DNA from: a virus
Taxonomy: Duplodnaviria > Heunggongvirae > Uroviricota > Caudoviricetes
IMG/VR virus record: IMGVR_UViG_2534681663_000023
Span: 1-13,507 of that record
Length of the DNA: 13,507 nucleotides
Direction: 5' to 3' (one strand)
Made by a program: the position numbers and the translations under genes. This document shows, piece by piece, positions 1 to 12,078 of this stretch. Every line of letters starts with the position of its first letter. Positions within the stretch are counted from its first letter, which is position 1. Under the pieces are notes generated by a model that did not search any database, was not told the origin of the DNA, and worked only from the letters and a program-made list of their open reading frames with translations.

Positions 1-213
1 TTAAATTGTGCGGACGGCTACTGAACCGCAGCCGGTATTGATGAGAGTGAAGCACTTGCCCTTTAGCTCAAAGATGTATGCGGTTGCGTCTTTCATGTCA
101 AGTAACAAAGACTTTGTTGGCAGTTCAGTGAGTATGGCTGCTGCCCCATCATCGTCAATTGAAATCGTATGTCCGACCTCAAGGGCGATCAAATTAGAAG
201 TTATTTTTTTCAT
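1..213 (-). CDS. Hypothetical small protein (70 aa), complete with stop at 1-3
   Basis: ORF track; ATG at 213-211 preceded on the minus strand by GGATGA about 8 nt upstream; stop TAA is the reverse complement of positions 1-3. No recognisable family. The overlapping plus-strand ORF 8-337 looks less protein-like. Confidence 0.35.
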   Translation of the reverse strand: MKKITSNLIALEVGHTISIDDDGAAAILTELPTKSLLLDMKDATAYIFELKGKCFTLINTGCGSVAVRTI

Positions 214-469
214 TTCATATCATCCAACTGAACACGTAAATACCTTGCAATACTACTACCTATTGTATCAATACGGAATACTTATGTATCAAATACAACT
301 TAGTTTTAAGTTCTTAAATGAGTTATTTTTTAGATAGTTGTCTATTAATGAAGCCTTTTGCGGTCAGTAAACCTATGTAAAAAAATAGATAAGTCTTTAC
401 AACACTAACCTTTGATGTAATATCAGTAAGCACTTACCAAATAAAATCAAAACACGCAGGTTGATAATT

Positions 470-859
470 ATGGCTACCAACGAAACAAAAGAAGCTAAAG
501 TAAGTCGCTACGCTGCTTACATTGACGCTTTAATCGCGATTTCTCCGAAAAGCCAGGCGACCATCGCGAAAGAAGCAGGCTATAAAAACCCTAACAATCT
601 TTCACTTATCAAGAGCGGCAAAATCCCGCTTCCGATCGACAAGGTCAGAGCGTTGGCTAAAGCATTGGATGCCGATTCGGTCCGATTGATGCTAATGGTG
701 CTGGAAGAGCGTCATCCAGAGCTGTTAGCGTTTTTTCGCGACGAAGGCACAGCCCCTCTGACTAAAGATGAAAAACTAGTTCTGGAAGCCTTCCGTCGAC
801 GTTTCGGTGACCAACGTGGTGCGTCGGAGCGGGTTGTTGAGGCAATCAAGTCGCTATGA
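470..859 (+). CDS. Putative HTH DNA-binding regulator (about 129 aa), convergent with the integrase
   Basis: ORF track 461-859 begins at TTG; the first ATG is at 470 with AGG about 9 nt upstream. The segment SQATIAKEAGYKNPNNLSLIKSGKIPLPIDKVRALAKAL reads like a helix-turn-helix of the XRE/phage regulator kind. Its 3' end overlaps the integrase 3' end by 6 bp. Confidence 0.5.
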   Translation: MATNETKEAKVSRYAAYIDALIAISPKSQATIAKEAGYKNPNNLSLIKSGKIPLPIDKVRALAKALDADSVRLMLMVLEERHPELLAFFRDEGTAPLTKDEKLVLEAFRRRFGDQRGASERVVEAIKSL

Positions 860-1957
860 GAAATTTACACGGATTAGCTCAGTAGCGAGTCGATCTCCCT
901 TGAACTTATGATCTATCTCCTCTAAATCCTGTTTCTCTACGATTGATGCGATGTACGCCGAAAAACTGTTTAAGGCGTCTCGCATCTCGTCTATATAATC
1001 GTGTCGATCGTATACTCGATCTATCCCCTCAAGACTGTGGTTCATAATTTTGCGGGATACCTCCTGACTTATGCCTAACGCGGGGAAGTAACTACGCGCA
1101 GTACGACGCAAATCTCGGGGAGTAAATGGCTCAAGCTCCATCAACTCTGGACGTTCTAAAATCCTTCTCAACGCCTGTGATATGGCCACCTTAGACATTG
1201 GCACATCCTCACCCTGTTTCTTGTTTGAAGGAACAAGCCACTGGCTGCCTTTTCCGTATTTGATCAGCTCCTCAACACATTTGCGCATTAGCGGGCTTAA
1301 TGGTAACGAGTGCTGGCGAGCCGATTTATTCCTCGTTCCTTGATTCCATAAATTATATTCGAGGTTGAATTCTGATCTTTTAGCTCGGAGCACTTCATCT
1401 GGTCGTCTGGCCGCTACAAGGCATAATCTGGCCGCCCACTTTGTACCCTCACATACGTTGAAGTAGTCCCATACATTCCAAAAGACCCAGACCTCTGCGT
1501 CGGTCAGTTTGCGCTCGCGCGGCGTGGGCTTCGCGCCACCGGCTACTCTGTTAAGCGACATATCGTTCAATGGGGATGTATCAATTAAGCCCTGAAATGC
1601 ACACCAACTGAGAAACTGCTTCATCAGCGAGAACACACGTCTGCCCTGGACGATCTTGCCCTCAAGTATTAATGGGTTCACCAGCTGGTTGACTAAAACC
1701 CTACTAATATCACTTACTTTTACTTCACAGATATGCGGCATTACATGTATCAAAATACAATGAACAGCTATTTCAGGTCGACGTCTCGTTATCAGCAAAG
1801 ATAAGCGAGTGAATAACATGAATGCGGAAGAAAACGACATATCACCGTCGAAATTGGTGGTCGACACTGCTGACAAACCGGAAGCGCGTTCGAGATACTC
1901 GATGGCTTCTCTAGAGGTGTTTTCTGCTGCGCGTGCTTTATCAAAAGTGTTTTTCAT
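854..1957 (-). CDS. int: Tyrosine-type site-specific integrase, P4-like family; true start uncertain
   Basis: C-terminal catalytic region matches the phage integrase pattern: ARRPDEVLRAKRSEFNL (box I Arg), KSARQHSLPLSP, RDLRRTARSY, NHSLEGIDRVYDRHDY (catalytic Tyr). The first ~75 residues of the ORF do not look like the usual P4-type arm-binding domain, so the real start may be internal (for example the Met of MPHICEVKV). Confidence 0.8.
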   Translation of the reverse strand: MKNTFDKARAAENTSREAIEYLERASGLSAVSTTNFDGDMSFSSAFMLFTRLSLLITRRRPEIAVHCILIHVMPHICEVKVSDISRVLVNQLVNPLILEGKIVQGRRVFSLMKQFLSWCAFQGLIDTSPLNDMSLNRVAGGAKPTPRERKLTDAEVWVFWNVWDYFNVCEGTKWAARLCLVAARRPDEVLRAKRSEFNLEYNLWNQGTRNKSARQHSLPLSPLMRKCVEELIKYGKGSQWLVPSNKKQGEDVPMSKVAISQALRRILERPELMELEPFTPRDLRRTARSYFPALGISQEVSRKIMNHSLEGIDRVYDRHDYIDEMRDALNSFSAYIASIVEKQDLEEIDHKFKGDRLATELIRVNFS

Positions 1958-2054
1958 AGTCCACTCACTGAGTGAAGCCTGTTTTTACTGTATTTATAAA
2001 CAGTATGTTAGGCCTAAGTTTTGTATGATCAACAGTAAAATAGACTGTTTTTGA

Positions 2055-2089
2055 AAATGATTCCATACCTTACAAGTATGGAATCATTT
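2055..2089. repeat. Perfect 14-bp inverted repeat AAATGATTCCATAC / GTATGGAATCATTT with 7-bp spacer, about 100 bp upstream of the integrase start
   Basis: Read directly from the sequence; both arms contain the recurring motif ATGATTCCATAC. Candidate operator or recombinase binding site. Confidence 0.7.
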
Positions 2090-2256
2090 ATATAGCTTAC
2101 GTAAATTCTGAATAAATTATGTAGACAAACCATCTTAAACGCTAAATAGTAAAAAGCGCCTAATAACGCCAACTTTGGAATGCCATCTGAGCCAGATTGA
2201 TGAGAATGATTTGTTAGAAGAAAAAGAATGATGAAGAAGATGACGATCGCTAAAGT

Positions 2257-2673
2257 TCAGCTAGAATGGAAACCTTCTGCGACTTCAGCGAAGTAGCTGA
2301 GCAACCTAGTATCTCTTGCTGGCATACGATCGTGAGCTGGAGTGACTAGCCCCATCAGCAAAAAACGCCCGCTATCCCACATGTGCTCGGTATAAACGAG
2401 ATAGTGGTTTGAGGTTCGGTTGTAGTTCTCTTGCCTTGCGTTCCAGGTAAGCTGGAAATGCAAATTGACGTGAATATGCTGGACATTAGCATCAACGGCG
2501 AACGGCGGGAAGTCAAATGGCGCATCTCGTCCAAGAAGATTAGATGGTGCGCCAGTTGATTTGTAAGTAATGAACTCGGATTTGAGCTGACTTTCTAGGT
2601 CAGGGTAAACGACAAAAGTGGGCTGAAAAAAATCATCCCACGTAACTTGACTGTATTCAGCCGTTAATGCCAT
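2257..2673 (-). CDS. YafO-like type II toxin (putative ribosome-dependent mRNA interferase), 138 aa
   Basis: Blocks recalled from E. coli YafO appear in the same order: ITYKSTG...LLGRDAPFDFP, HIHVNLH, HYLVY, ARD. The start ATG overlaps the stop of the upstream gene (ATGGCATTAA). Identification is from memory and needs a profile search. Confidence 0.5.
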   Translation of the reverse strand: MALTAEYSQVTWDDFFQPTFVVYPDLESQLKSEFITYKSTGAPSNLLGRDAPFDFPPFAVDANVQHIHVNLHFQLTWNARQENYNRTSNHYLVYTEHMWDSGRFLLMGLVTPAHDRMPARDTRLLSYFAEVAEGFHSS

Positions 2674-3212
2674 TTAGCCGCAGCCTTGTTGCCAGTCTCT
2701 AATAGATGGTTCATGGCTAAAAGGTTGACACCAGAGTCACGCACTACAGAAGTGCGTGTAATCTGATCAATCAGATTGAGATAGTTTTTGGTCGCAATAC
2801 TGACCATTTTAATAGCCTTAAAAAACGCAAACTCAACAGTGTTTTTTTCGTAAGACATGATGACGTCTTTTTCAGGTAACATCAAAACAAAAGATTCTGC
2901 GATACCGGCTACATGAATAGTTTGATTCTTAATTTCTTCCGCTACTTTGATAGCAGCAAAGAAGTCAGTGTCAGCATAATGAGCAAGTTCAGCGCGGCTT
3001 GAACGCAGTTCTTTAGCCAATTCATTGAGAGCAGCTGTAAGATCACTGATGTCGGTTTTGTTGACTCTAGCGCCCATCTCATAAACCCGTTCTACAATCG
3101 TAGGCTGACACGCAACCGCTTTGGGTTGCGGCTGGATACTGGCAAGAACCAGTGCCACTGCTGCCTGCAAATGCTGGATTTTAAATTTCACGATAGACTC
3201 CATAATCGTCAT
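2664..3212 (-). CDS. Hypothetical protein (182 aa), translationally coupled upstream partner of the YafO-like toxin; possible atypical antitoxin
   Basis: ORF track; 8-nt overlap with the toxin start; no recognisable domain by eye; much larger than YafN or Phd-type antitoxins. Confidence 0.45.
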   Translation of the reverse strand: MTIMESIVKFKIQHLQAAVALVLASIQPQPKAVACQPTIVERVYEMGARVNKTDISDLTAALNELAKELRSSRAELAHYADTDFFAAIKVAEEIKNQTIHVAGIAESFVLMLPEKDVIMSYEKNTVEFAFFKAIKMVSIATKNYLNLIDQITRTSVVRDSGVNLLAMNHLLETGNKAAAKWH

Positions 3213-3293
3213 TTCTCGACGAAGCGTAGCATTCTACTACTGAACTTAACTATAAGCTAAAAAAAGTTGGTTGCATATGCGACTTGATAGCAA

Positions 3294-3320
3294 AAAGGGG
3301 CCGAAGCCCCTTTGGATTTT
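3294..3320. terminator. Bidirectional rho-independent terminator hairpin (GGGGC-CGAA-GCCCC) flanked by A/T runs
   Basis: On the minus strand the stem is followed by TTTTTG, which would terminate the tRNA-Asn transcript before the toxin module; on the plus strand it is followed by TTTGGATTTTG. Confidence 0.5.
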
Positions 3321-3387
3321 GCGCTGAAAAAAGTGTTGCTACGATGCTTAGAAGCAATGGTTAAAAAACGTCTGCCGTGTCTATCAC

Positions 3388-3462
3388 AGCGCTGAACGGT
3401 CTGGCGACATTTGCGGAGTCTTTCGTTCGGACGGTGGTGGCGAATCCAAACCGTTCAGCGCT
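3388..3462. repeat. Perfect 13-bp inverted repeat AGCGCTGAACGGT / ACCGTTCAGCGCT enclosing 49 bp, immediately 3' of the tRNA
   Basis: Read directly from the sequence. Lies between the tRNA 3' end (3467) and the terminator; could be a processing or structural element, or a small repeat element. Confidence 0.6.
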
Positions 3463-3466
3463 ATGT

Positions 3467-3541
3467 TGGCGATGGTGGGTGGACTCGAACCACCGACCAG
3501 TTGATTAACAGTCAACCGCTCTACCACTGAGCTACACCATC
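3467..3541 (-). tRNA. tRNA-Asn (anticodon GTT), 75 nt with encoded CCA
   Basis: Manual fold of the minus strand: acceptor GATGGTG/CACCATC, D-arm GCTC-AGTGGTA-GAGC, anticodon stem GTTGA/TCAAC with loop CTGTTAA (U33, GTT, A37), variable TGGTC, T-arm GGTGG-TTCGAGT-CCACC, discriminator G, CCA. Confidence 0.85.
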
Positions 3542-3719: not shown

Positions 3720-3790
3720 ACATGTTGTGAAGCCAGGGGCAATAAAGGCAACAATGTTTTCACTAGAGGGTTAATTAATCCTGCTTTCAC

Positions 3791-3900
3791 AACGTTGAGA
3801 TCACTGAACCGATTAATGTTCAACCCAACATATTGATCAGTCGCTACAGCTATGTGGAATCGCCTGTATGATTTTAAGAAAAATCAGTGATCTCAACGTT
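3791..3900. repeat. Perfect 17-bp inverted repeat AACGTTGAGATCACTGA / TCAGTGATCTCAACGTT separated by 76 bp, in an ORF-free region
   Basis: Read directly from the sequence; arms at 3791-3807 and 3884-3900. Candidate structured RNA or miniature inverted-repeat element. Confidence 0.65.
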
Positions 3901-4266
3901 ATGTGCTGACTAACCAAGTCAGCCGGGTTACGTCGCCGCTTTTAACCCAAGTATAAACGACATAAGTAATGGAAATGACGTAACAGAATGGACGGTCAGC
4001 TGAAACCGGGATGGGGGAATGGAATGATGAAACCAACCGCCCATTCTGTTACTTCATTGAATGGGGCATGGATGGTGCAATATGCCCTATTCTGCGTTCT
4101 GCAATCACACTCGCTCAGTGTGTCCCATTTTGGTGACGAGGCTGGAAACTGACCTCGCTGGTGTTTGGCTTCTTAGGCTACTGCCAGGTATGCATCTTCG
4201 TTTGCAGTTATATTTAACGTTCAAACAGTCGCATCTCAACGAAAACAAAGTGATCTTATACATATT

Positions 4267-4290
4267 AGATAAGTAAGTAAATACTTATCT
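4267..4290. terminator. Possible weak hairpin (AGATAAGTA / TACTTATCT, 6-nt loop) at the end of the small-ORF operon
   Basis: 9-bp AT-rich stem overlapping the stop of the 101-aa ORF; no strong U-run, so terminator function is uncertain. Confidence 0.25.
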
Positions 4291-4590
4291 ATCTGTGATG
4301 CGTTTAGTTGCTATCTTTTTGATCAGGCTCCCCTTTTGTTCCGAAGTTCTCATGATGATGGCGGTAAAACGCTTCGCTTGAATAGTGATAGTTTCGTTTT
4401 CCTTGAGTTCGCCGTAATGCGTCTCTAACAGGGACCCCAGACGCCACAGACCGTCGTCTATGCGTTTATGGCTGGCGAATCTGATCAGCAGTAGCTTTAC
4501 GATTAACTGACCAATGTAAAAGGCAAATCCGAAGCCGGCCGCCACAAGGTAGGTTGCCAGCCACCAGTCGAAGGAAGTCAAATTGCTCAT
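4285..4590 (-). CDS. Hypothetical small membrane protein (101 aa), last gene of the coupled small-ORF chain
   Basis: ORF track; N-terminal hydrophobic stretch WWLATYLVAAGFGFAFYIGQLIVKLLLI; its ATG overlaps the stop of the upstream 50-aa ORF (AAATGAGC). Confidence 0.45.
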   Translation of the reverse strand: MSNLTSFDWWLATYLVAAGFGFAFYIGQLIVKLLLIRFASHKRIDDGLWRLGSLLETHYGELKENETITIQAKRFTAIIMRTSEQKGSLIKKIATKRITDR

Positions 4591-5156: not shown

Positions 5157-5194
5157 GGGGAGCCCGCAGAATTCGGAAAAAATCGTACGCTAAG
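5157..5194 (+). repeat. Transposon terminal inverted repeat, tnpA-proximal (38 bp); contains the tnpA stop codon
   Basis: GGGG...ACGCTAAG architecture typical of Tn3-family ends; tnpA stop at 5190-5192 lies within it. Confidence 0.85.
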
Positions 5195-8156
5195 GTTTTC
5201 CGGGCATCCGTAAGGGCCGAAACTTCCCGTCTTCCAGTCTGCGGCTCTGCCGCCAGACGTAATCGCCGGTTAGGTTGATGTGCTCCCAGCCCAGCGGCGA
5301 CAGGAATTGCAGCAGCTCGCCGTCCACCGGCTTGCCGGCCTCGACCAACCCCTGGGTGGCGCGTTCCAGGTACACCGTGTTCCACAGCACGATAGCCGCC
5401 GTCACCAGGTTGAGGCCGCTGGCCCGGTAGCGCTGCTGCTCGAAGCTCCGATCCCTGATTTCCCCAAGGCGGTTGAAGAACACCGCCCTGGCCAGCGAGT
5501 TGCGCGCCTCACCTTTGTTCAGGCCGGCATGCACGCGGCGGCGCAGTTCAACACTTTGCAGCCAGTCCAGGATGAACAGCGTGCGCTCGATCCGGCCCAG
5601 CTCGCGCAGGGCCACGGCCAGTCCGTTCTGGCGCGGGTAGCTGCCGAGCTTGCGCAGCATCAGCGAGGCGGTGACGGTGCCCTGCTTGATCGAGCTGGCC
5701 AGGCGCAGGATGTCGTCCCAGTGGGCACGCACGTGCTTGATGTTCAGGGTGCCGCCGATCAGCGGGCGCAACGTCGGGTAGGCTTGCACGCCCTGCGGCA
5801 CGTACAGCTTGGTTTCGCCGAGGTCGCGGATGCGCGGCGCGAAGCGGAAGCCTAGCAGGTGCATCAGGGCAAAGACGTGATCGGTGAAGCCGGCCGTGTC
5901 GGTGTAGTGCTCCTCGATCCGCAGGTCGGACTCGTGGTACAGCAGGCCGTCGAGCACATAGGTGGAATCGCGGACGCCGACATTCACCACGCGGGTGCTG
6001 AACGGCGCGTACTGGTCGGAGATATGGGTATAGAACAGCCGTCCCGGCTCGCTACCGTACTTCGGGTTGACGTGCCCGGTGCTCTCGCCCCGGCCACCCG
6101 CGCGGAAGCGCTGGCCATCGGAGGATGAGGTCGTGCCGTCGCCCCAGTGGGCGGCAAAGGCGTGGCGATACTGGTGGTTGACCAGCTCGGCCAAGGCCGC
6201 CGAATAGGTTTCGTCGCGGATGTGCCAGGCTTGCAGCCAGGACAGCTTGGCGTAGGTCAGGCCGGGGCTCGACTCGGCCATCTTGGTCAGCCCGAGGTTG
6301 ATCGCATCACCGAGGATTGCGGACAGCAGCAACGTCCTGTCTTTGGCCTCGGCCCCGTCCTTCAAGTGGGTGAAGTGGCGGCTGAAGCCCGTCCAGTCGT
6401 CCACGTCCATCAGCAGTTCGGTGATCTTGATGCGCGGCAGTAACTGGCTGGTTTGGTCGATCAGCGCCTGCGCCCGATCCGGCACCGCCGCATCCAGCGG
6501 GGGGATTTTCAGCCCTGACTCGGTGAGGATGGCATCGGGCAGCTCGTTGTCCTTGGCCAGGCGGGTGACGGTGGCCAACTGCTCGTCCAGCAGCTGCAAA
6601 CGCTCTTCCAGGTACTGGTCGCTGTTCGGGTTGATCGCCAGGGGCAGGGCCTGCTCGCGCTTGAGTGCGGCGAACTTCTCGGCCGGCAGCAGGTAGTCGT
6701 CGAAGTCGCGGAACTGCCGCGAGCCCTTGACCCAGATGTCGCCGGAGCGCAGGGCGTTCTTCAGCTCGGACAGGGCGCAGATTTCGTAGAATTTCCGGTC
6801 GAGGCCTTCCGGGGTGATCACCAGCGGCTTCCAGCGCGGCTTGATGAAGGCCGTGGGTGCATCGGCCGGCACCTTGCGCAGGTTGTCGGCGTTCATCTCA
6901 CGCAGGGTCTGCACGGCTGCCAGCACGCCTTGCGCGGCCGGCGCGGCGCGCAGTTCCAGCACCTCCAGCAAGGCCGGCGTGTAACGGCGCAGGGTGGCGA
7001 AGTTCTCGCCGACCAGGTGCAGGTGGTCGAAGCCTTCCGGCCGGGCCAGCAGCTCGGCCTCGCTGACGCTCTCGGTGAACTCGTCCCAGGGAATCACCGC
7101 CTCGATGGCGGCATAGGGGTCGCTGCCGCTTTCCTTCGCTTCCAGCAGCGCCTGGCCGATCCTGGAGTACAGGCGCACCTTGTCGTTGATCGCCTTGCCC
7201 TGCTTCTGGAACTGCTGCTGATGCTTGTGCTTCGCGCCGCTGAACAGCTTGACCAGGATGCGGTCATGCAGATCGACCAGCTCATCGATCACGGTCGCGG
7301 TGCTCTCCAGCACCACGGCGGCCAGGGTCGCGTAGCGGCGCTGCGGCTCGAACTTACCGAGGGCTTTGGGCGTCATCTGCCCACCCTCGCGGGCCAGCTT
7401 GAGCAGGCGGTTCTGGTGGATGTGCCGGCCCAGGCCTTCGGGCAAGTCCACCAACTGAAATGTCTTCAGCCGCTCGATGTGTTCCAGCATGTGCCGAGAG
7501 TTGGGTTTCAGCGGTGCCTGGCGCAGCCAGGTCAACCAGGTGATGCTGCTGCCGGCCTTGAGCTTCAACAGCTCGTCCAGCTTGGCCCGATGCGAGTCCG
7601 TGAGTGGTTCGACCAGGGCGCGGTAGACCCGCCGATTGGCTCGCGCAATGGCTTCCGAGCAGGCCCGGTCAATCACGCTCAGCGCCGGCAGGATGCGTCG
7701 TTTCTGCCGTAGGCTCTCCAGGGCCTGACCGGCCAGCAGCAAGCCTTTGTCGGTCTGCTGGGCCAGCTCGGTTAGCTCGCGCACCAGGGCGCGGAAGTCG
7801 GACAGGCCGAACGGGGCCAGTTGCAGGTAGGTGCGCAGTTCCTGGGCATGCTCGCGACGGGTCACGTCGCGCTCGCCGTACTTTGCCCAGCTCGCCGGCT
7901 CGGCCTGGACTTGCTTCGCCACCCACAGGATGACCGGCTCGGGCAGCTCGCTGTCGGTTCCCAGCGCGTAACCGGGGTAGCGCAGCAGGCAGAGCTGCAC
8001 GGCGAAGCCGAGGCGGTTGGCGTCGCCGCGTCGCTGGCGGATCAGCGACAGGTCGGAGTCGTTGAAGGTGTAGTAGCGGATCAGGTCATCCTGGCTTTCC
8101 GGCAGCGCAAGCAGGGTGTCCCGCTCCGTGGCCGAGAGGATCAAGCGACGCGGCAT
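5190..8156 (-). CDS. tnpA: Tn3-family transposase TnpA (988 aa)
   Basis: Length and sequence ([44 protein letters not shown]...) match Tn21/Tn501-type TnpA as recalled; very GC-rich relative to its surroundings; terminates inside the terminal repeat. Confidence 0.95.
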
Positions 8157-8159
8157 GTG

Positions 8160-8720
8160 TCAGTCGTCCGTGCGGAGGTACTGGTAGAGGGTTTCCCGGC
8201 TGATGTTGAACTCGCGGGCAAGCTGCGCCTTGGGCTCGCCGGCCGTCGCTCGCTGCCGCAGGGTAGCAGCCTGCTCATCGGACAGGGCTTTCTTGCGGCC
8301 CCGGTACGCGCCACGCTGCTTGGCCAAGGCGATGCCCTCACGCTGCCGCTCGCGGATCAGGGCGCGCTCGAACTCAGCGAAGGCCCCCATCACCGACAGC
8401 ATCAGGTTGGCCATCGGCGAGTCCTCGCCAGTGAACACCAGGCCCTCCTTCAGGAACTCGATGCGCACGCCGCGCTGAGTCAGCTTCTGTACCAAGCGAC
8501 GCAGGTCATCGAGGTTGCGGGCCAGCCGATCCATGCTGTGCACCACCACTGTATCGCCTTCGCGGACGAAGCTCAGCAGCGCTTCGAGCTGGGGGCGCTG
8601 GGTGTCCTTGCCCGATGCCTTGTCGGTGAACACCTTGCTCACCTGGGTTTGTTCCAGCTGGCGTTCCGGGTTCTGGTCAAAGCTGCTGACCCGGACGTAG
8701 CCGATGCGGTGCCCCTGCAC
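8160..8720 (-). CDS. tnpR: Serine resolvase TnpR (186 aa)
   Basis: N-terminal serine-recombinase motif (IGYVRVSSFDQNPERQ), C-terminal HTH (ISRETLYQYLR); sits directly upstream of tnpA in the same orientation, as in the Tn21 subgroup. Confidence 0.95.
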   Translation of the reverse strand: MQGHRIGYVRVSSFDQNPERQLEQTQVSKVFTDKASGKDTQRPQLEALLSFVREGDTVVVHSMDRLARNLDDLRRLVQKLTQRGVRIEFLKEGLVFTGEDSPMANLMLSVMGAFAEFERALIRERQREGIALAKQRGAYRGRKKALSDEQAATLRQRATAGEPKAQLAREFNISRETLYQYLRTDD

Positions 8721-8724
8721 GATG

Positions 8725-8900
8725 TCTCCTTGGTTGAAGGCGGCTTAAGTGCACTTTCTGTTCCGTTGTGCCTCAAAGCCCATTTCTGTCAGGCTGAAAT
8801 CTATAACCTTCGCGGGCATGTGTCAAAAAATGGGAAAGCAGACTCTATTCTGACGAAGCGGCGCGGCCCTGCCTGACATCAAGTTAGGGTATAGCCTAGA
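8725..8900. promoter_or_regulatory. Putative res (resolution) site and tnpR promoter region
   Basis: Lies immediately upstream of tnpR and contains several TGTCA/TGACA half-site-like repeats (TGTCAGGCTGAAAT..., CATGTGTCA, CTGCCTGACATC). Exact subsite boundaries not determined. Confidence 0.5.
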
Positions 8901-9029
8901 TTGACATGCGCGATGCAACCCTTAACTTGCTTGCACCTATCGTTTCCATGCTAGCTTTATCGTAACGCTCAAGAAATTGGGCTTAATGCCGAAAACAATA
9001 AAATAAAACAGCCAACCCTTGAGGTTCTT

Positions 9030-10607
9030 ATGCGCCAGAATTTACCAGTGACGGGTCGAAACTTAGAACTCCCAAAAGATGCCAATATTCTTTCGACTAC
9101 CTCCCCTCAAAGCCATATCACGTACGTTAATCCTGACTTCATTAAAATCAGTGGTTTCACTGAGGAAGAACTATTAGGCCAGCCTCACAACATCGTAAGA
9201 CACCCAGATATGCCGCCTGCTGCATTTGAGCATATGTGGAGTACATTAAAATCTGGCCGCTCATGGATGGGGCTAGTAAAAAATCGCTGTAAAAATGGCG
9301 ACCACTATTGGGTAAGTGCTTATGTAACGCCAATAGCTAAGAATGGTTCGATTGTTGAATACCAGTCTGTAAGGACCAAGCCTGAACCTGAGCAGGTTTT
9401 GGCTGCGGAAAAATTATATGCTCAATTGAGAAGCGGGAAGGCCGCGAGGCCGAAATTGGCTGCTAGCTTTTCCGTGAAAATACTCTTGCTCATATGGGGT
9501 AGTATTATATCAAGCGCAATGGCTGCCGGCATGCTTACTGATACATCAATAAGCAGCTTATTGTTAGCCACTTTAATGTCAGGAAGCTTAAGCTCTGTTA
9601 GTGTTTTGGCTATTCTCTCTCCTCTTGGAAGACTGGTTGAAAGAGCCAGGAATATTTCCAATAACCCATTAAGTCAATCCCTCTACACTGGGCGCACCGA
9701 TGAGTTTGGCCAAATAGAGTTTGCTTTACGAATGATGCAAGCTGAAACAGGCGCCATAGTAGGTCGCATAGGTGATGCATCAAATCGGCTTAGCGAACAC
9801 ACCCGAGGCCTACTAAAGGATATTGAGTCAAGCAATGTACTTACAGTTGAGCAGCAGGCAGAGACAGATCAAATAGCAACGGCAGTAAACCAAATGGTGG
9901 CAAGCATTCAAGAGGTTGCGAGCAATGCACAGCATGCTGCAGATGCGGCCGGAAGAGCAGACACTGAGACGGCATCTGGCCAGCGTCTGGTAGCCCACAC
10001 AAGCCAGTCAATCACTGCCCTTGAAGGTGAAATTAGGCAAGCCACTCAGGTTATTCATGAGCTTGAAGGTCAAAGTAACGAGATATCAAAAGTTCTTGAC
10101 GTTATACGAGGGATCGCCGAGCAAACGAATTTGTTGGCACTCAACGCAGCAATTGAGGCCGCGCGTGCTGGTGAGCAGGGGCGTGGTTTTGCTGTTGTCG
10201 CCGATGAGGTTCGCAGTCTTGCTGCTCGCACACAGCAATCGACAACGGATATTCAAAGCATGATCAGCGCTCTACAAGAGCGAGCGCAATCCGCTGTTAC
10301 AGTCATGGAGCAAAGTAGTCGGCAAGCGCACACGAGTGTAGCTCACGCAGAGGAAGCAGCTACAGCTCTTGATGGAATTGGCCAACGCGTTAACGAAATT
10401 ACCGACATGAACGCGCAAATAGCGACTGCGGTCGAGCAGCAGGGAGCAGTAAGTGAAGACATAAACCGCAGTATTATCAATATACGCGATGCTGCTGATA
10501 CCAATGTACAGACCGGGCAGAATAATTTGCAAAGTGCGAAATCTGTCGCTCAGTTAACTAGCGCTCTGAGCGAACTGGCAAAACAGTTTTGGGAAAAACG
10601 AGGATAA
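9030..10607 (+). CDS. aer: Aer-like aerotaxis receptor (N-terminal PAS, membrane hairpin, methyl-accepting chemotaxis signalling domain), 525 aa; transposon passenger
   Basis: N-terminus closely resembles E. coli Aer PAS ([68 protein letters not shown]); hydrophobic hairpin near residues 150-195; conserved signalling core ([32 protein letters not shown]). Confidence 0.85.
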
Positions 10608-10740: not shown

Positions 10741-12078
10741 TCACGAGAACACCGTTAGCTTAGCGTACGATTTTTTCCGAATTCTGCGGTTCCCCCATTT
10801 AGGCCACTTCAGACGTGGATGACGCAAGCTACCATCTGGCGTTTTCTCATGGCAGTGAACCTCAACGATGCGTCCACGATACTTCTCCTGATTGTTCCAG
10901 ATTTCATCCAGGTATTTATGCTTGATACCGCTGGCACGAACGATGACGCCGTTCTCCAGACGAATCACTATCTTGCCTAGCGTATGCGCAAATCCAGAAT
11001 CCGGATCGCCAGGCTCGAAGTCGATGATTTCACCGTCTTCTGAATCCTCGTCTTTCAGCTTCCACCAGCTGCGGGTACGTTTGAACTCGTAAACTGAATC
11101 CGGATCTTTGCCCATCTCTCCCTCTTCATTCTCGTCCAGTCGCTTCATGAAACGTTCGATGAAATCTTCGTGGCTATGGATGATGTAGAACGGATGAAGG
11201 TGGATATCTTGCGCATAATCTTCCACGCAAGTGTTGCGGAACAACGCCACCAGCATAGCCAGGCGCTCTTTCAGCTTCATACCGGTCTTCAGGTACTCTT
11301 TGCTTTTTGCTTGAGCACGCCACTCCGGTAAGAAGAAATCGAAAATGTGGTAAACGGCACCAATGGCTTTCACGTTCTTCTTACGAAGCGCCGACACTGA
11401 CTGGTTGAATGTACCTGCAGTGCCCTCTCCATCGAAGAAGATGTGATTGAAGCCGGAGAGTCTGCCCCGCTCCAGCATGGCTGGTTTAAGGTGATCGAGT
11501 GACGTAATCGGATTGCCGGTGCGCGTCAGGAAATTGACCTCACCCTCGTCCACGATGACTTCGCAGATAACCCGGAGACCATCGAGTTTGAGACTGCCGA
11601 TCATTGGCCACTTGGCCTTTGGATTTGGTTTAAATGGGTATTTGTCGCCTTTCTCCTTGTACGGAGACGCCAGCTGTACCTCAAACTTCGGAATTGGGTT
11701 TTCGAACACCTTGTTGCACAGGCTGATGCCGACACCGGCTTTCGGATCTTTCAGCAGGAAGCGACGAAACACGTCCTGCCCGTCAGCGCACATCGAGGCA
11801 ACGAGTGATTCGACAGCAGCAATAGCGATGTTCCCGGTCAGTTCGCGCGCTGCCAGCTTCTCCAGCAGATCTACTACCTTCTGGTCGCTGGGTACGGAAG
11901 TATCGAGTGGCTCGGCCACTTTGTACTTCTTCACACCGAATCGAATGAATGGATTGAGCATTAGCGAGACCATGCTCTGTTCAAATTCATCCAGATTGGC
12001 CAGCGCCTCTTTCTTGGCGTTGGTTCCCATCGTTTTAATAGCATCCAGCTTGTGCTTTAGGGCGATCAGTTTTTCCAT
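10741..12078 (-). CDS. T4-type ATP-dependent DNA ligase; 3' end interrupted by the transposon (last 18 codons of this ORF are read from the ATTTA duplication and terminal repeat)
   Basis: Nucleotidyltransferase motifs in order: I KLDGLR, III FFDGEG, IIIa YHIFDF, IV EGEMGKD, V WWKLK, VI LRHPRL. N-terminal region parallels T4 ligase as recalled (LTGNIAIAAV, ISLCNKVFENPIP, LASPYKEKG). GGAGG lies about 10 nt upstream of the ATG. Confidence 0.85.
   Translation of the reverse strand: MEKLIALKHKLDAIKTMGTNAKKEALANLDEFEQSMVSLMLNPFIRFGVKKYKVAEPLDTSVPSDQKVVDLLEKLAARELTGNIAIAAVESLVASMCADGQDVFRRFLLKDPKAGVGISLCNKVFENPIPKFEVQLASPYKEKGDKYPFKPNPKAKWPMIGSLKLDGLRVICEVIVDEGEVNFLTRTGNPITSLDHLKPAMLERGRLSGFNHIFFDGEGTAGTFNQSVSALRKKNVKAIGAVYHIFDFFLPEWRAQAKSKEYLKTGMKLKERLAMLVALFRNTCVEDYAQDIHLHPFYIIHSHEDFIERFMKRLDENEEGEMGKDPDSVYEFKRTRSWWKLKDEDSEDGEIIDFEPGDPDSGFAHTLGKIVIRLENGVIVRASGIKHKYLDEIWNNQEKYRGRIVEVHCHEKTPDGSLRHPRLKWPKWGNRRIRKKSYAKLTVFS
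10759..10796 (-). repeat. Transposon terminal inverted repeat, passenger-proximal (38 bp)
   Basis: Reverse complement matches the tnpA-proximal repeat at 35 of 38 positions; followed immediately by ATTTA. Confidence 0.85.

What the first reader, a model, noticed from the sequence alone, without database searches (positions are those of the whole stretch)
3791..3900. Perfect 17-bp inverted repeat flanking 76 bp in an ORF-free stretch
A 17-bp perfect inverted repeat is very unlikely by chance at this scale. The roughly 740-bp region between the tRNA and the small-ORF operon has no convincing ORF. This could be a structured small RNA, a miniature inverted-repeat element, or a regulatory site.
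Basis: seen in the sequence. Interest (0 to 1): 0.4.

Follow-up and report, generated by a model that had tools for sequence, protein, structure and literature searches.

The report
Closing stem of phage tmRNA-like RNA
The inverted repeat is real and is best read as a conserved 19-20 base-pair RNA stem, inside a previously unannotated, highly structured RNA of an SSU5-type phage-plasmid that carries a tmRNA-style tag-coding segment (ANEDAYLAVA) next to a tRNA gene; it is not a mobile element or a DNA on/off switch.

Summary
In detail: 3791-3807 and 3884-3900 are a perfect 17-bp inverted repeat, extending to 20 bp at 3788-3807/3884-3903. None of 300 shuffles gave one.

The window is an SSU5/pHCM2-type phage-plasmid. 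The "ORF-free" 740 bp is conserved in hundreds of plasmids and phages.

- **Strand.** The region folds much better on the minus strand, the strand of tRNA-Asn. The consensus fold is -130 versus -89 kcal/mol.
- **Helix.** The repeat arms show compensatory changes. Five pairs have one-sided changes that are G·U only on the minus strand.
- **Same stem elsewhere.** The stem type (outer CACAAC/GUUGUG, variable 43-240 nt insert) recurs in lambdoid phages and a large Klebsiella phage; Felix-O1-like phages have an analogous, differently sequenced stem.
- **Upstream gene.** About 300 nt upstream lies a tmRNA-like tag frame, GCA…UAA = ANEDAYLAVA*. It is kept at the peptide level in all but 2 of 133 loci. 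No tRNA-like domain was found.
- **Inversion.** One locus of 77 carries the segment inverted. None of about 610 plasmids does, so it is not a phase switch.
- **Copy number.** There are no other copies, so it is not a MITE.

The likely role is a terminal structural or processing stem. That role is inferred, not shown.

The parts
3884..3903 (-). 5' strand of the stem in RNA sense, CAUAACGUUGAGAUCACUGA.
3788..3807 (-). 3' strand of the stem in RNA sense, UCAGUGAUCUCAACGUUGUG.
3808..3883 (-). Variable 76-nt insert closed by the stem. It is 58-86 nt in relatives. In this sequence it is predicted to form three hairpins. Conserved motifs are UUGGG and CACAGAG. It is found inverted in one relative, L127.
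4173..4205 (-). tmRNA-like tag reading frame: resume codon GCA at 4205-4203, stop UAA at 4175-4173. It encodes ANEDAYLAVA*.
4206..4255 (-). 5' part of the RNA. It holds the family-wide GUUUUCGU box, a near-copy of the stem's 5' strand (CGUUGAGAU, 4238-4230), and the resume-codon context UAACU.
   Evidence: The start of the RNA is inferred from promoter-like sequence, not mapped.
4100..4172 (-). Hairpins and pseudoknot-like elements just after the tag frame. Stem 4158-4152/4142-4136 has a loop UUCCA that can pair with UGGGA. Next comes hairpin 4127-4117/4111-4100.
   Evidence: The covariation CCAA/UUGG versus CCGA/UCGG in relatives was read from the alignment.
3974..4058 (-). Second long stem of about 25 bp (arms 4058-4032 and 4001-3974) closing an insert of about 30-39 nt. 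It shows compensatory changes.
3905..3965 (-). Candidate H-type pseudoknot (AUGUCG/CGACGU with GGGUU/AACCC, 3963-3925), followed by hairpin GCUGAC-UUGGUUA-GUCAGC (3923-3905) directly upstream of the stem.
   Evidence: The pseudoknot is my reading of the sequence and was not tested.
3467..3541 (-). tRNA-Asn (GUU), same strand, downstream of the structured RNA.
3385..3465 (-). Third long stem (20 bp, 41-nt insert) directly after tRNA-Asn. In some relatives this position holds a CACAAC…GUUGUG stem of the same class.
3374..3390 (-). Terminator-like hairpin with a U run. It is the probable end of the transcription unit.

Best explanation
**Shown.**
- The inverted repeat is the DNA image of a 19-20 bp RNA helix on the minus strand, 3903-3884 pairing with 3807-3788. 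It closes a variable 58-86 nt insert.
- It belongs to a conserved, highly structured non-coding region of SSU5-type phage-plasmids. That region lies between a small-ORF operon and tRNA-Asn.
- The same region begins with a tmRNA-like mRNA segment, a resume codon GCA and the tag ANEDAYLAVA*, followed by pseudoknot-like hairpins.
- The stem is the SSU5-lineage version of a stem type found in related RNAs of lambdoid phages and a large Klebsiella phage (outer CACAAC/GUUGUG, inner CAYUG/CAGUG, freely variable tip); Felix-O1-like phages have an analogous long stem with a different sequence. It is the last element conserved across all SSU5-type groups before the downstream tRNA.

**Inferred.**
- The whole stretch is probably one transcript, running from a promoter near 4260 through tRNA-Asn to the terminator near 3380.
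- The stem probably acts as a terminal stalk. It would be a double-stranded processing site (RNase III-type) and/or a 3' protective hairpin that separates and stabilises the tmRNA-like RNA from the tRNA precursor.
- The insert would be a tolerated expansion segment.
- The rare DNA inversion between the arms is a by-product of the repeat, not its function.

**Confidence.** About 0.8 that the repeat is a selected minus-strand RNA helix of this structured RNA, and about 0.35 for the specific processing or stabilising role. The overall figure given is a compromise between the two.
For: **Reality and conservation**
- The repeat is exact and beyond chance.
- The region is present in 246 of 5426 complete E. 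coli genomes, always on plasmids, and in 761 PLSDB plasmids of 9 genera.
- It is 90% identical in phage SSU5.

**RNA helix**
- On 20 distinct sequences all 19 pairs are kept and 98.9% of cells are paired.
- Three pairs changed on both sides.
- Five pairs changed on one side only, always to G·U or U·G in minus-strand sense. Those would be A·C mismatches on the plus strand.

**Strand**
- The consensus fold of 53 distinct sequences is -130.1 kcal/mol in minus-strand sense and -88.7 antisense.
- The neighbouring tRNA, ORFs and terminator are all on the minus strand.

**Same stem in other phage groups**
- In 14 stems from the SSU5-type, a lambdoid phage, a large Klebsiella phage and post-tRNA positions, 9 of 19 pairs changed on both sides.
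- 98.5% of cells are paired, and every measure exceeds 500 of 500 shuffles.

**Partner choice**
- The 3' strand covaries with the adjacent 5' strand, not with the look-alike sequence at 4238-4230.

**tmRNA-like context**
- The tag frame is kept at the peptide level with synonymous changes in all but 2 of 133 loci (AN[DE]xx[YF]LAVA).
- ARAGORN recognises the resume consensus at a relaxed threshold.
- The element sits in or next to tRNA genes in all groups.
Against: - There are no expression data. The one Y. pestis sRNA-seq study checked reports nothing at this locus, so transcription, ends and processing are inferred.
- The outer 12 bp of the stem never vary within the SSU5 group. An RNA helix alone does not explain that; it hints at sequence-specific recognition by a protein or nuclease, or a DNA-level constraint.
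- The G·U asymmetry is 5 pairs against 1 and is statistically weak on its own.
- The internal hairpins of the insert are only partly conserved.
- The cross-family stems were picked by requiring complementarity, which inflates the paired percentage.
- No tRNA-like domain was found, so "tmRNA-like" describes only part of the molecule.
Confidence: 0.6

Rival explanations
1. Programmed invertible DNA switch (inverton). A recombinase would flip the 76-bp segment between the repeats to redirect a promoter.
For: - One IMG/VR locus (L127) carries the segment as the exact reverse complement of that in its closest relative (L005). The flanks are identical and the asymmetric inner base of the arms is swapped.
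- A promoter-like pair of hexamers spans one arm and the segment.
Against: - The orientation is the same in 76 of 77 loci.
- No inverted allele was seen among about 610 plasmids probed with synthetic inverted queries: none at or above 90% identity for the window and SSU5 types, 0 of 192, 0 of 304 and 0 of 4.
- The -35 to -10 spacing varies from 13 to 17 bp between groups and the -10 is not conserved.
- The only recombinases in the window lie in accessory elements that SSU5 lacks: an island integrase and a Tn3-family resolvase.
- 76 bp is very short for recombinase synapsis (established knowledge).
Confidence: 0.04
2. DNA-level protein-binding site. Each arm contains the 8-bp palindrome CAACGTTG, and the two copies lie 104 bp apart, about ten helical turns. 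That could be a pair of operators for a looping regulator, or part of a replication origin in the replication-gene module.
For: - The outer 12 bp of both arms are invariant in the SSU5 group while the inside varies.
- The locus lies among ligase, primase, helicase and polymerase genes.
- CAACGTTG occurs only 5 times in 100 kb of SSU5, two of them here.
Against: - One-sided changes are tolerated only when they give G·U on the minus strand. A duplex-DNA site would not care about that.
- Lambdoid and other relatives keep the pairing but change the middle of the arms completely.
- The spacing between arms varies from 58 to 240 nt, which does not fit fixed helical phasing.
Confidence: 0.1
3. Mobile hairpin cassette or MITE-like element. 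The arms would be terminal repeats of a small element that inserts into, or is exchanged between, sites in phage RNA genes.
For: In lambdoid relatives the same insert type, a tRNA-like module with a T arm, is found in the hairpin upstream of the tag in one phage (L029) and in the downstream hairpin in another (L016). Inserts differ freely between close relatives.
Against: - There is a single copy per replicon.
- There is none on E. coli chromosomes.
- No further copy was found in the window or in SSU5.
- No target-site duplication is visible.
- Within the SSU5 group the insert evolves by point changes and small indels at a fixed site.
Confidence: 0.1
4. Independent small RNA, about 110 nt, with its own promoter. 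It would act as a base-pairing regulator and be unrelated to the tag-coding RNA upstream.
For: - The isolated segment folds well: -44.5 kcal/mol, z = -5.1.
- The conserved loop motif UUGGG could be a seed.
Against: - There is no conserved promoter and no intrinsic terminator after the stem.
- The stem class always follows the tag-coding core or a tRNA in relatives.
- The insert is the least conserved part.
Confidence: 0.08

Closest known systems
tmRNA (SsrA), including two-piece or permuted forms (Rfam RF00023, RF01849-51, RF04321)
   Same: - A short reading frame without a start codon that begins with GCA.
- U-A at positions -5/-4 before the resume codon.
- A hydrophobic Ala-rich end, a stop codon, and pseudoknot-like hairpins after it.
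- The tag resembles the E. coli tag ANDENYALAA.
- The location is among tRNA genes.
   Different: - No acceptor stem, G3·U70, T arm or CCA was found in the window or in SSU5.
- Rfam scores (19.9 bits) are far below the gathering score (47).
- ARAGORN finds it only at 80% threshold, and then with a spurious tRNA domain.
- The tag ends LAVA, not LAA.
- The RNA carries long stems closing variable inserts.
RNase III processing stems and intervening sequences of rRNA operons (for example the Salmonella 23S IVS)
   Same: A long, nearly perfect stem of about 20 bp with a conserved base and a variable tip, inside a polycistronic stable-RNA transcript next to tRNA. This comparison rests on established knowledge, not on a test here.
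   Different: Cleavage has not been shown, there is no sequence relation, and the host RNA is not rRNA.
Large structured phage RNAs found next to tRNA genes (GOLLD RF01998, ROOL RF03087)
   Same: Several hundred nucleotides of conserved, highly structured non-coding RNA in phages, adjacent to tRNAs.
   Different: No Rfam match to either family even at E-value 10. Those RNAs have no tag reading frame.
Invertons (fimS, hin and gut Bacteroides invertible promoters)
   Same: Inverted repeats of 10-30 bp flanking a short segment; one natural inverted allele was seen.
   Different: The orientation is essentially fixed. There is no conserved invertase nearby, no conserved promoter inside, and the segment is far shorter than known switches.

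Membership tests
tmRNA | Tag reading frame with resume codon GCA, conserved upstream context, and a stop codon; conserved as a peptide | tested here: met
   - ANEDAYLAVA* at 4205-4173.
- ARAGORN resume consensus.
- All but 2 of 133 loci give AN[DE]xx[YF]LAVA, with synonymous changes.
tmRNA | tRNA-like domain: acceptor stem with G3·U70, T arm, 3' CCA | tested here: not met
   - ARAGORN at default settings finds none.
- The relaxed "permuted" call places the tRNA domain inside ORF 4285-4590.
- Rfam finds only tRNA-Asn in the window and in 100 kb of SSU5.
- T-arm-like hairpins exist in some lambdoid relatives but without an Ala-type acceptor or CCA.
tmRNA | Reaches the Rfam gathering score | tested here: not met
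   tmRNA_permuted scores 19.9 bits against a gathering score of 47; beta_tmRNA scores 14.7 against 84.
tmRNA | Pseudoknots flanking the tag frame | tested here: inconclusive
   A hairpin after the tag has a loop complementary to the downstream sequence. It covaries between groups (CCAA/UUGG, CCGA/UCGG, UUCCA/UGGGA), as read. This was not tested formally, and PK1 was not identified.
tmRNA | Acts with SmpB in trans-translation | not testable with these tools
   No SmpB-like gene was seen among the window ORFs. Function needs experiments.
Inverton (invertible DNA switch) | Both orientations present in natural populations | tested here: not met
   1 of 77 loci is inverted; 0 of about 610 plasmids.
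Inverton (invertible DNA switch) | Dedicated recombinase conserved with the repeats | tested here: not met
   The window integrase (854-1957) and resolvase (8160-8720) lie in an island and a Tn3-family transposon that SSU5 lacks, yet SSU5 has the repeat.
Inverton (invertible DNA switch) | Promoter or other polar signal inside the segment | tested here: inconclusive
   There is one 9-of-12 promoter-like match. Its spacing and -10 are not conserved between groups.
MITE | Multiple dispersed copies and target-site duplication | tested here: not met
   - There is one locus per replicon and none on chromosomes.
- There is no other copy in the window or in SSU5.
- No flanking direct repeat is seen in the sequence.
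Intrinsic terminator | GC-rich hairpin followed by a U run | tested here: not met
   The stem is followed by GUGAAAGCAGG. The scan lists only the site at 3390-3374.
RNase III processing stem | About two turns of uninterrupted double-stranded RNA in a precursor of stable RNAs | tested here: met
   19-20 contiguous pairs are kept in all 20 distinct sequences.
RNase III processing stem | Cleavage by RNase III in vivo | not testable with these tools
   Needs RNA end mapping in wild type and an rnc mutant.

The most novel reading that the evidence does not exclude
The stem would be the terminal stalk of a new, widespread class of phage-encoded tag-coding RNAs in enterobacterial phages: SSU5-type phage-plasmids including Y. 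pestis pMT1 and S. Typhi pHCM2, Felix-O1-like phages, lambdoid phages and large Klebsiella phages.

These RNAs keep the mRNA half of tmRNA, with a non-canonical …LAVA tag. They lack, or supply separately, the tRNA half. They carry exchangeable hairpin cassettes.

Phages would thereby re-programme ribosome rescue or protein tagging late in infection.
Probability: 0.3. Interest if true: 0.85.

Novelty: new variant of a known kind. Interest (0 to 1): 0.55.

Why it matters
The repeat on its own is a modest feature, a conserved RNA stem. Following it uncovered an RNA gene that standard annotation misses.

- **What annotation sees.** ARAGORN at default settings and Rfam find nothing. PGAP leaves the region blank. 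At least one genome announcement that includes Felixounavirus phages states that no tmRNAs were found.
- **Where the RNA occurs.** It is present in hundreds of clinically relevant plasmids, including pHCM2 of S. Typhi, pMT1 of Y. pestis, and Klebsiella and E. coli phage-plasmids, and in several unrelated phage groups.
- **Why that is notable.** A tag frame conserved at the peptide level without a recognisable tRNA-like domain has no described precedent in the literature I could search.
- **What it would mean if it works in trans-translation.** Phages would be manipulating ribosome rescue and the fate of tagged proteins.
- **What it would mean if it does not.** Something else must then explain selection on the peptide.

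Either way the question is directly testable in SSU5 or a lambdoid phage.

Tried and rejected
- **Inverton.** The one inverted allele (L127) prompted synthetic inverted queries for five sequence types against PLSDB and the E. coli genomes and a BLAST screen for opposite-strand segments. Only L127 is inverted, so this was rejected as a programmed switch.
- **Invertible promoter.** The hexamers are not conserved in spacing.
- **MITE.** No other copies exist.
- **Alternative long-range pairing.** The 3' arm can pair with the look-alike 5' region at 4238-4230. It is the best duplex partner in all but one of the nine representatives tested. But the arm covaries with the local 5' arm, not with that region, so the local helix is the selected one.
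- **Terminal pairing of GUUUUCG with CGAAAAU just before tRNA-Asn.** It is present in only three closely related groups, so it was dropped.
- **Search for a tRNA-like domain.**
  - ARAGORN at lowered thresholds gave a spurious result.
  - Rfam E-value scans of the window and relatives gave nothing.
  - A T-arm regex over all groups was run.
  - A whole-SSU5 Rfam scan was run.
  - Comparison with E. coli ssrA gave only weak local similarities.
  - No convincing domain came out of any of these.
- **Y. pestis sRNA-seq tables.** sR082 and sR083 on pMT1 lie elsewhere.
- **Genome-contig scan.** The 15-base pattern returned chance matches only among the 80 rows displayed, and the scan was wasted.
- **Supplements of the 2025 tmRNA database paper.** They hold no phage list.
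- **Pfam and PHROGs on neighbouring small ORFs.** They gave no function.

Full report
**1. The observation**

The window carries AACGTTGAGATCACTGA at 3791-3807 and its exact reverse complement at 3884-3900, 76 bp apart. The repeat extends to 20 bp (3788-3807/3884-3903) with one mismatch.

With up to three mismatches the 17-mer occurs nowhere else in the window, against 0.04 expected. No perfect inverted repeat of 17 bp or more with a spacer of 200 bp or less arose in 300 shuffles; the analytic expectation is 1.6e-4.

**2. Where we are**

The 779 bp between tRNA-Asn (3467-3541, minus strand) and the first small ORF (4285-4590, minus strand) match the following:
- 246 of 5426 complete E. coli genomes, always on plasmids of about 100-115 kb.
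- Phage SSU5 at 90%.
- 761 PLSDB plasmids of Klebsiella, Escherichia, Enterobacter, Yersinia (pMT1), Salmonella (pHCM2 type) and others.

The window is therefore an SSU5-type phage-plasmid. Compared with SSU5 it carries two accessory insertions:
- An island with a tyrosine integrase and a YafO toxin module beside tRNA-Asn.
- A Tn3-family transposon with transposase, resolvase and a chemoreceptor-like passenger.

SSU5 has the repeat and lacks both insertions. Neither recombinase can therefore be the reason for the repeat.

**3. The repeat is an RNA helix on the minus strand**

I aligned 20 distinct versions of the element. All 19 pairs of the stem are kept and 98.9% of cells are paired.
- Three pairs changed on both sides, for example GAGAUCAC, GAGGCCAC and GAGACCAC, each with the matching partner.
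- Five pairs changed on one side only. In every case the change gives G·U or U·G in minus-strand sense, which would be an A·C mismatch on the plus strand.
- Only four cells are unpaired.

The consensus fold of 53 distinct sequences spanning the tag region through the stem and about 170 nt beyond it (635 nt each) is -130.1 kcal/mol in minus-strand sense and -88.7 kcal/mol antisense. Single-sequence folds are far below shuffles on both strands, as expected for inverted repeats. The tRNA, the ORFs and the only terminator-like site are all on the minus strand.

The insert closed by the stem varies from 58 to 86 nt and keeps only short motifs, UUGGG and CACAGAG. The region between the stem and the tRNA diverges strongly between groups. 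The stem is therefore the last element conserved throughout the SSU5-type family.

**4. What lies upstream: a tmRNA-like tag frame**

Weak Rfam hits to permuted tmRNA models led me to read the minus strand at 4205-4173. It reads GCA AAC GAA GAU GCA UAC CUG GCA GUA GCC UAA, which is ANEDAYLAVA*.

Homologues read ANEDTYLAVA, ANDNQYLAVA and ANEEVYLAVA, with synonymous third-base changes.

The same core of about 120 nt occurs in three other settings:
- Felix-O1-like phages, inside the tRNA array, with tag ANDNVFLAVA.
- A lambdoid Enterobacter phage, between Q/PR' and the lysis genes, with tag ANDDQFLAVA.
- A 158-kb Klebsiella phage, with tag ANDNTFLAVA.

All but 2 of the 133 loci in hand encode AN[DE]xx[YF]LAVA. 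tRNA genes on the same strand are frequently adjacent.

ARAGORN recognises the resume consensus and the tag only at 80% threshold. It then places the "tRNA domain" inside a protein-coding ORF, which I regard as spurious.

After the tag there is a hairpin whose loop can pair with downstream sequence. The pairing covaries between groups (read).

I could not find a tRNA-like domain in the window, in relatives, or in 100 kb of SSU5. Some lambdoid relatives have T-arm-like hairpins inside inserts, but without an alanine-type acceptor or CCA.

On the literature:
- The 2014 census of tmRNA genes found none in enterobacterial phages or plasmids (PMC4131195).
- A genome announcement that includes Felixounavirus phages states that none of the genomes contained tmRNAs (PMC10508124).
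- My searches found no description of this RNA.
- The library lacks most subscription journals, so prior description cannot be excluded.

**5. The stem belongs to a family-wide class**

In lambdoid relatives the RNA continues straight after the second pseudoknot-like element. The sequence runs GCRCACAAC-AGG-UAAGRGCAUUG, then an insert of 43-240 nt, then CAGUGCUCUU-UCC-GUUGUGG.
- The outer six pairs (CACAAC/GUUGUG) and the inner end (CAYUG/CAGUG) are the same as in the window's stem, CACAUAACGUUGAGAUCACUG…CAGUGAUCUCAACGUUGUG.
- Only the middle differs, and it differs by paired changes.

I compared 14 stems from the SSU5-type, a lambdoid phage, the large Klebsiella phage and positions directly after tRNA-Asn.
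- 9 of 19 pairs changed on both sides.
- 98.5% of cells are paired.
- All measures exceed 500 of 500 shuffles, and slid controls give 33-54% paired.

There is a caveat. I selected these stems by requiring complementarity, so the paired percentage is partly built in. The shared ends and shared position are not.

The window has two more long stems of this kind: 4058-4032/4001-3974, and 3465-3446/3404-3385 directly after tRNA-Asn.

Inserts behave like exchangeable tips. One tRNA-like insert sits in the upstream hairpin of one lambdoid phage and in the downstream hairpin of another.

**6. The inversion**

The loci were oriented by the tag pattern. One of them (L127, IMG/VR) carries the 76-bp segment as the exact reverse complement of that in its nearest relative (L005). 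The flanks are identical and the asymmetric inner base of the arms is swapped. This is a true inversion by exchange within the arms.

It is the only one among 77 loci. Synthetic inverted queries found none among plasmids of the following types:
- The window and SSU5 types, with no hit at or above 90% identity.
- The E. coli 73% type, 0 of 192.
- The Klebsiella type, 0 of 304.
- The L005 type, 0 of 4.

The other two long repeats show no inversion. A phase switch would show mixed orientations, so I treat the inversion as a rare by-product of a 20-bp inverted repeat.

**7. Other readings**

- **MITE.** This is excluded by copy number.
- **Promoter in the segment.** This is not supported because hexamer spacing varies from 13 to 17 bp.
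- **DNA-binding site.** Each arm contains the palindrome CAACGTTG, and the invariance of the outer 12 bp is not explained by pairing alone. But strand-specific wobble tolerance, variable spacing and complete turnover of the arm middle in relatives argue for RNA.
- **Alternative pairing.** The 3' arm can also pair with a look-alike of the 5' arm near the RNA's 5' end (4238-4230), at about -21 kcal/mol. The arm's variable positions follow the adjacent 5' arm, not that region.

**8. Mechanism, with what is shown and what is inferred**

Shown:
- A conserved minus-strand RNA helix closes a variable insert.
- It is part of a conserved structured region with a peptide-constrained tmRNA-like tag frame.
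- It lies upstream of tRNA-Asn.

Inferred:
- There is one transcript from a promoter near 4260 to the terminator at about 3380.
- RNase P releases the tRNA.
- The 20-bp stem serves as a double-stranded processing site and/or 3' protective hairpin that defines and stabilises the tag-coding RNA.

Whether the tag frame is translated, and how this could happen without a tRNA-like domain, is open.

**9. Verdict**

The repeat is real, non-random and functional-looking. It is best explained as an RNA stem.

The surrounding tmRNA-like RNA is the more important result, and I could not find it described. I rate the finding as a new variant of a known kind, a tmRNA-related stable RNA, with moderate to high interest that depends on experimental confirmation.

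Noticed in passing
window 4085-4255 (minus strand); also L010 1440-1680, L011 1440-1740, L012 1440-1740: An unannotated tmRNA-like tag-coding RNA core: the GUUUUCGU box, resume codon GCA, tag AN[DE]xx[YF]LAVA, a stop codon and pseudoknot-like hairpins. It is shared by SSU5-type phage-plasmids, Felix-O1-like phages (inside the tRNA array), lambdoid phages (after Q/PR') and a 158-kb Klebsiella phage. ARAGORN at default settings and Rfam at gathering thresholds miss it, and no tRNA-like domain was found.
   Followed up: partly
L127 about 7638-7749 versus L005: One natural allele has the 76-bp segment between the repeats inverted, with exchange inside the arms. It is the only case in 77 loci, and none was found among about 610 plasmids.
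   Followed up: yes
window 1-3300 (integrase 854-1957, YafO toxin 2257-2673, partner ORF 2664-3212): A block of about 3.5 kb lies on the 3' side of tRNA-Asn. It holds a tyrosine integrase, a regulator-like ORF and a YafO toxin module, and SSU5 lacks it: there the cobT-like gene follows the tRNA directly. It looks like an island integrated at the phage-plasmid's own tRNA gene. No att repeat was identified within the window.
   Followed up: partly
window 5190-10607: A Tn3-family transposon is inserted between the small-ORF operon and the DNA ligase gene (10741-12078). It carries a transposase (5190-8156), a resolvase (8160-8720) and a PAS/HAMP/MCP chemoreceptor-like passenger (9030-10607). SSU5 and some E. 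coli relatives do not have it.
   Followed up: partly
window 3974-4058 and 3385-3465: There are two further long near-perfect stems on the minus strand, about 25 bp and 20 bp, closing 30-41 nt inserts. The second follows tRNA-Asn directly. In relatives L019, L071, L106 and L124 that position holds a CACAACGGUAAG…CUUACCGUUGUG stem of the lambdoid type.
   Followed up: partly
L029 and L016: In lambdoid relatives, hairpin tips behave like exchangeable cassettes between conserved boundaries (UAAGRGCAUU…AGUGCUCUUU). The same tRNA-like insert with a T arm (…GGUAGAGGGUUCGAAUCCCUAC…) is upstream of the tag in L029 and downstream of it in L016.
   Followed up: no
L012 1788-1855 (minus strand): A 68-nt tRNA-like element without an anticodon arm (GGCGAGG…UGUGGUUCGAUUCCACAUCCUCGCCA) lies about 130 nt upstream of the tag-coding core in Klebsiella phage Bullseye. 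ARAGORN does not call it, and it gives only a weak tRNA-Sec model hit.
   Followed up: no
window 4230-4238 versus 3890-3898: The 9-mer CGUUGAGAU (RNA sense) occurs twice: near the 5' end of the RNA and in the 5' strand of the stem. The stem's 3' strand is therefore the best duplex partner of the 5' region in all but one of the nine representatives tested (about -21 kcal/mol). Covariation favours the local helix, and the meaning of the duplication is unexplained.
   Followed up: partly
window 4266-4291: A perfect 10-bp palindrome, TAGATAAGTA-N6-TACTTATCTA, overlaps the promoter-like sequence just upstream of the RNA. Its core is conserved in all SSU5-type groups. It could be an operator.
   Followed up: no
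L004 (Y. pestis pG8786 / pMT1) 900-1100: In Y. pestis pMT1 the homology to this region starts about 20 bp before the stem and abuts caf1R, the F1 capsule regulator. The capsule locus has replaced the tRNA side, while the stem and the tag-coding RNA are retained.
   Followed up: no
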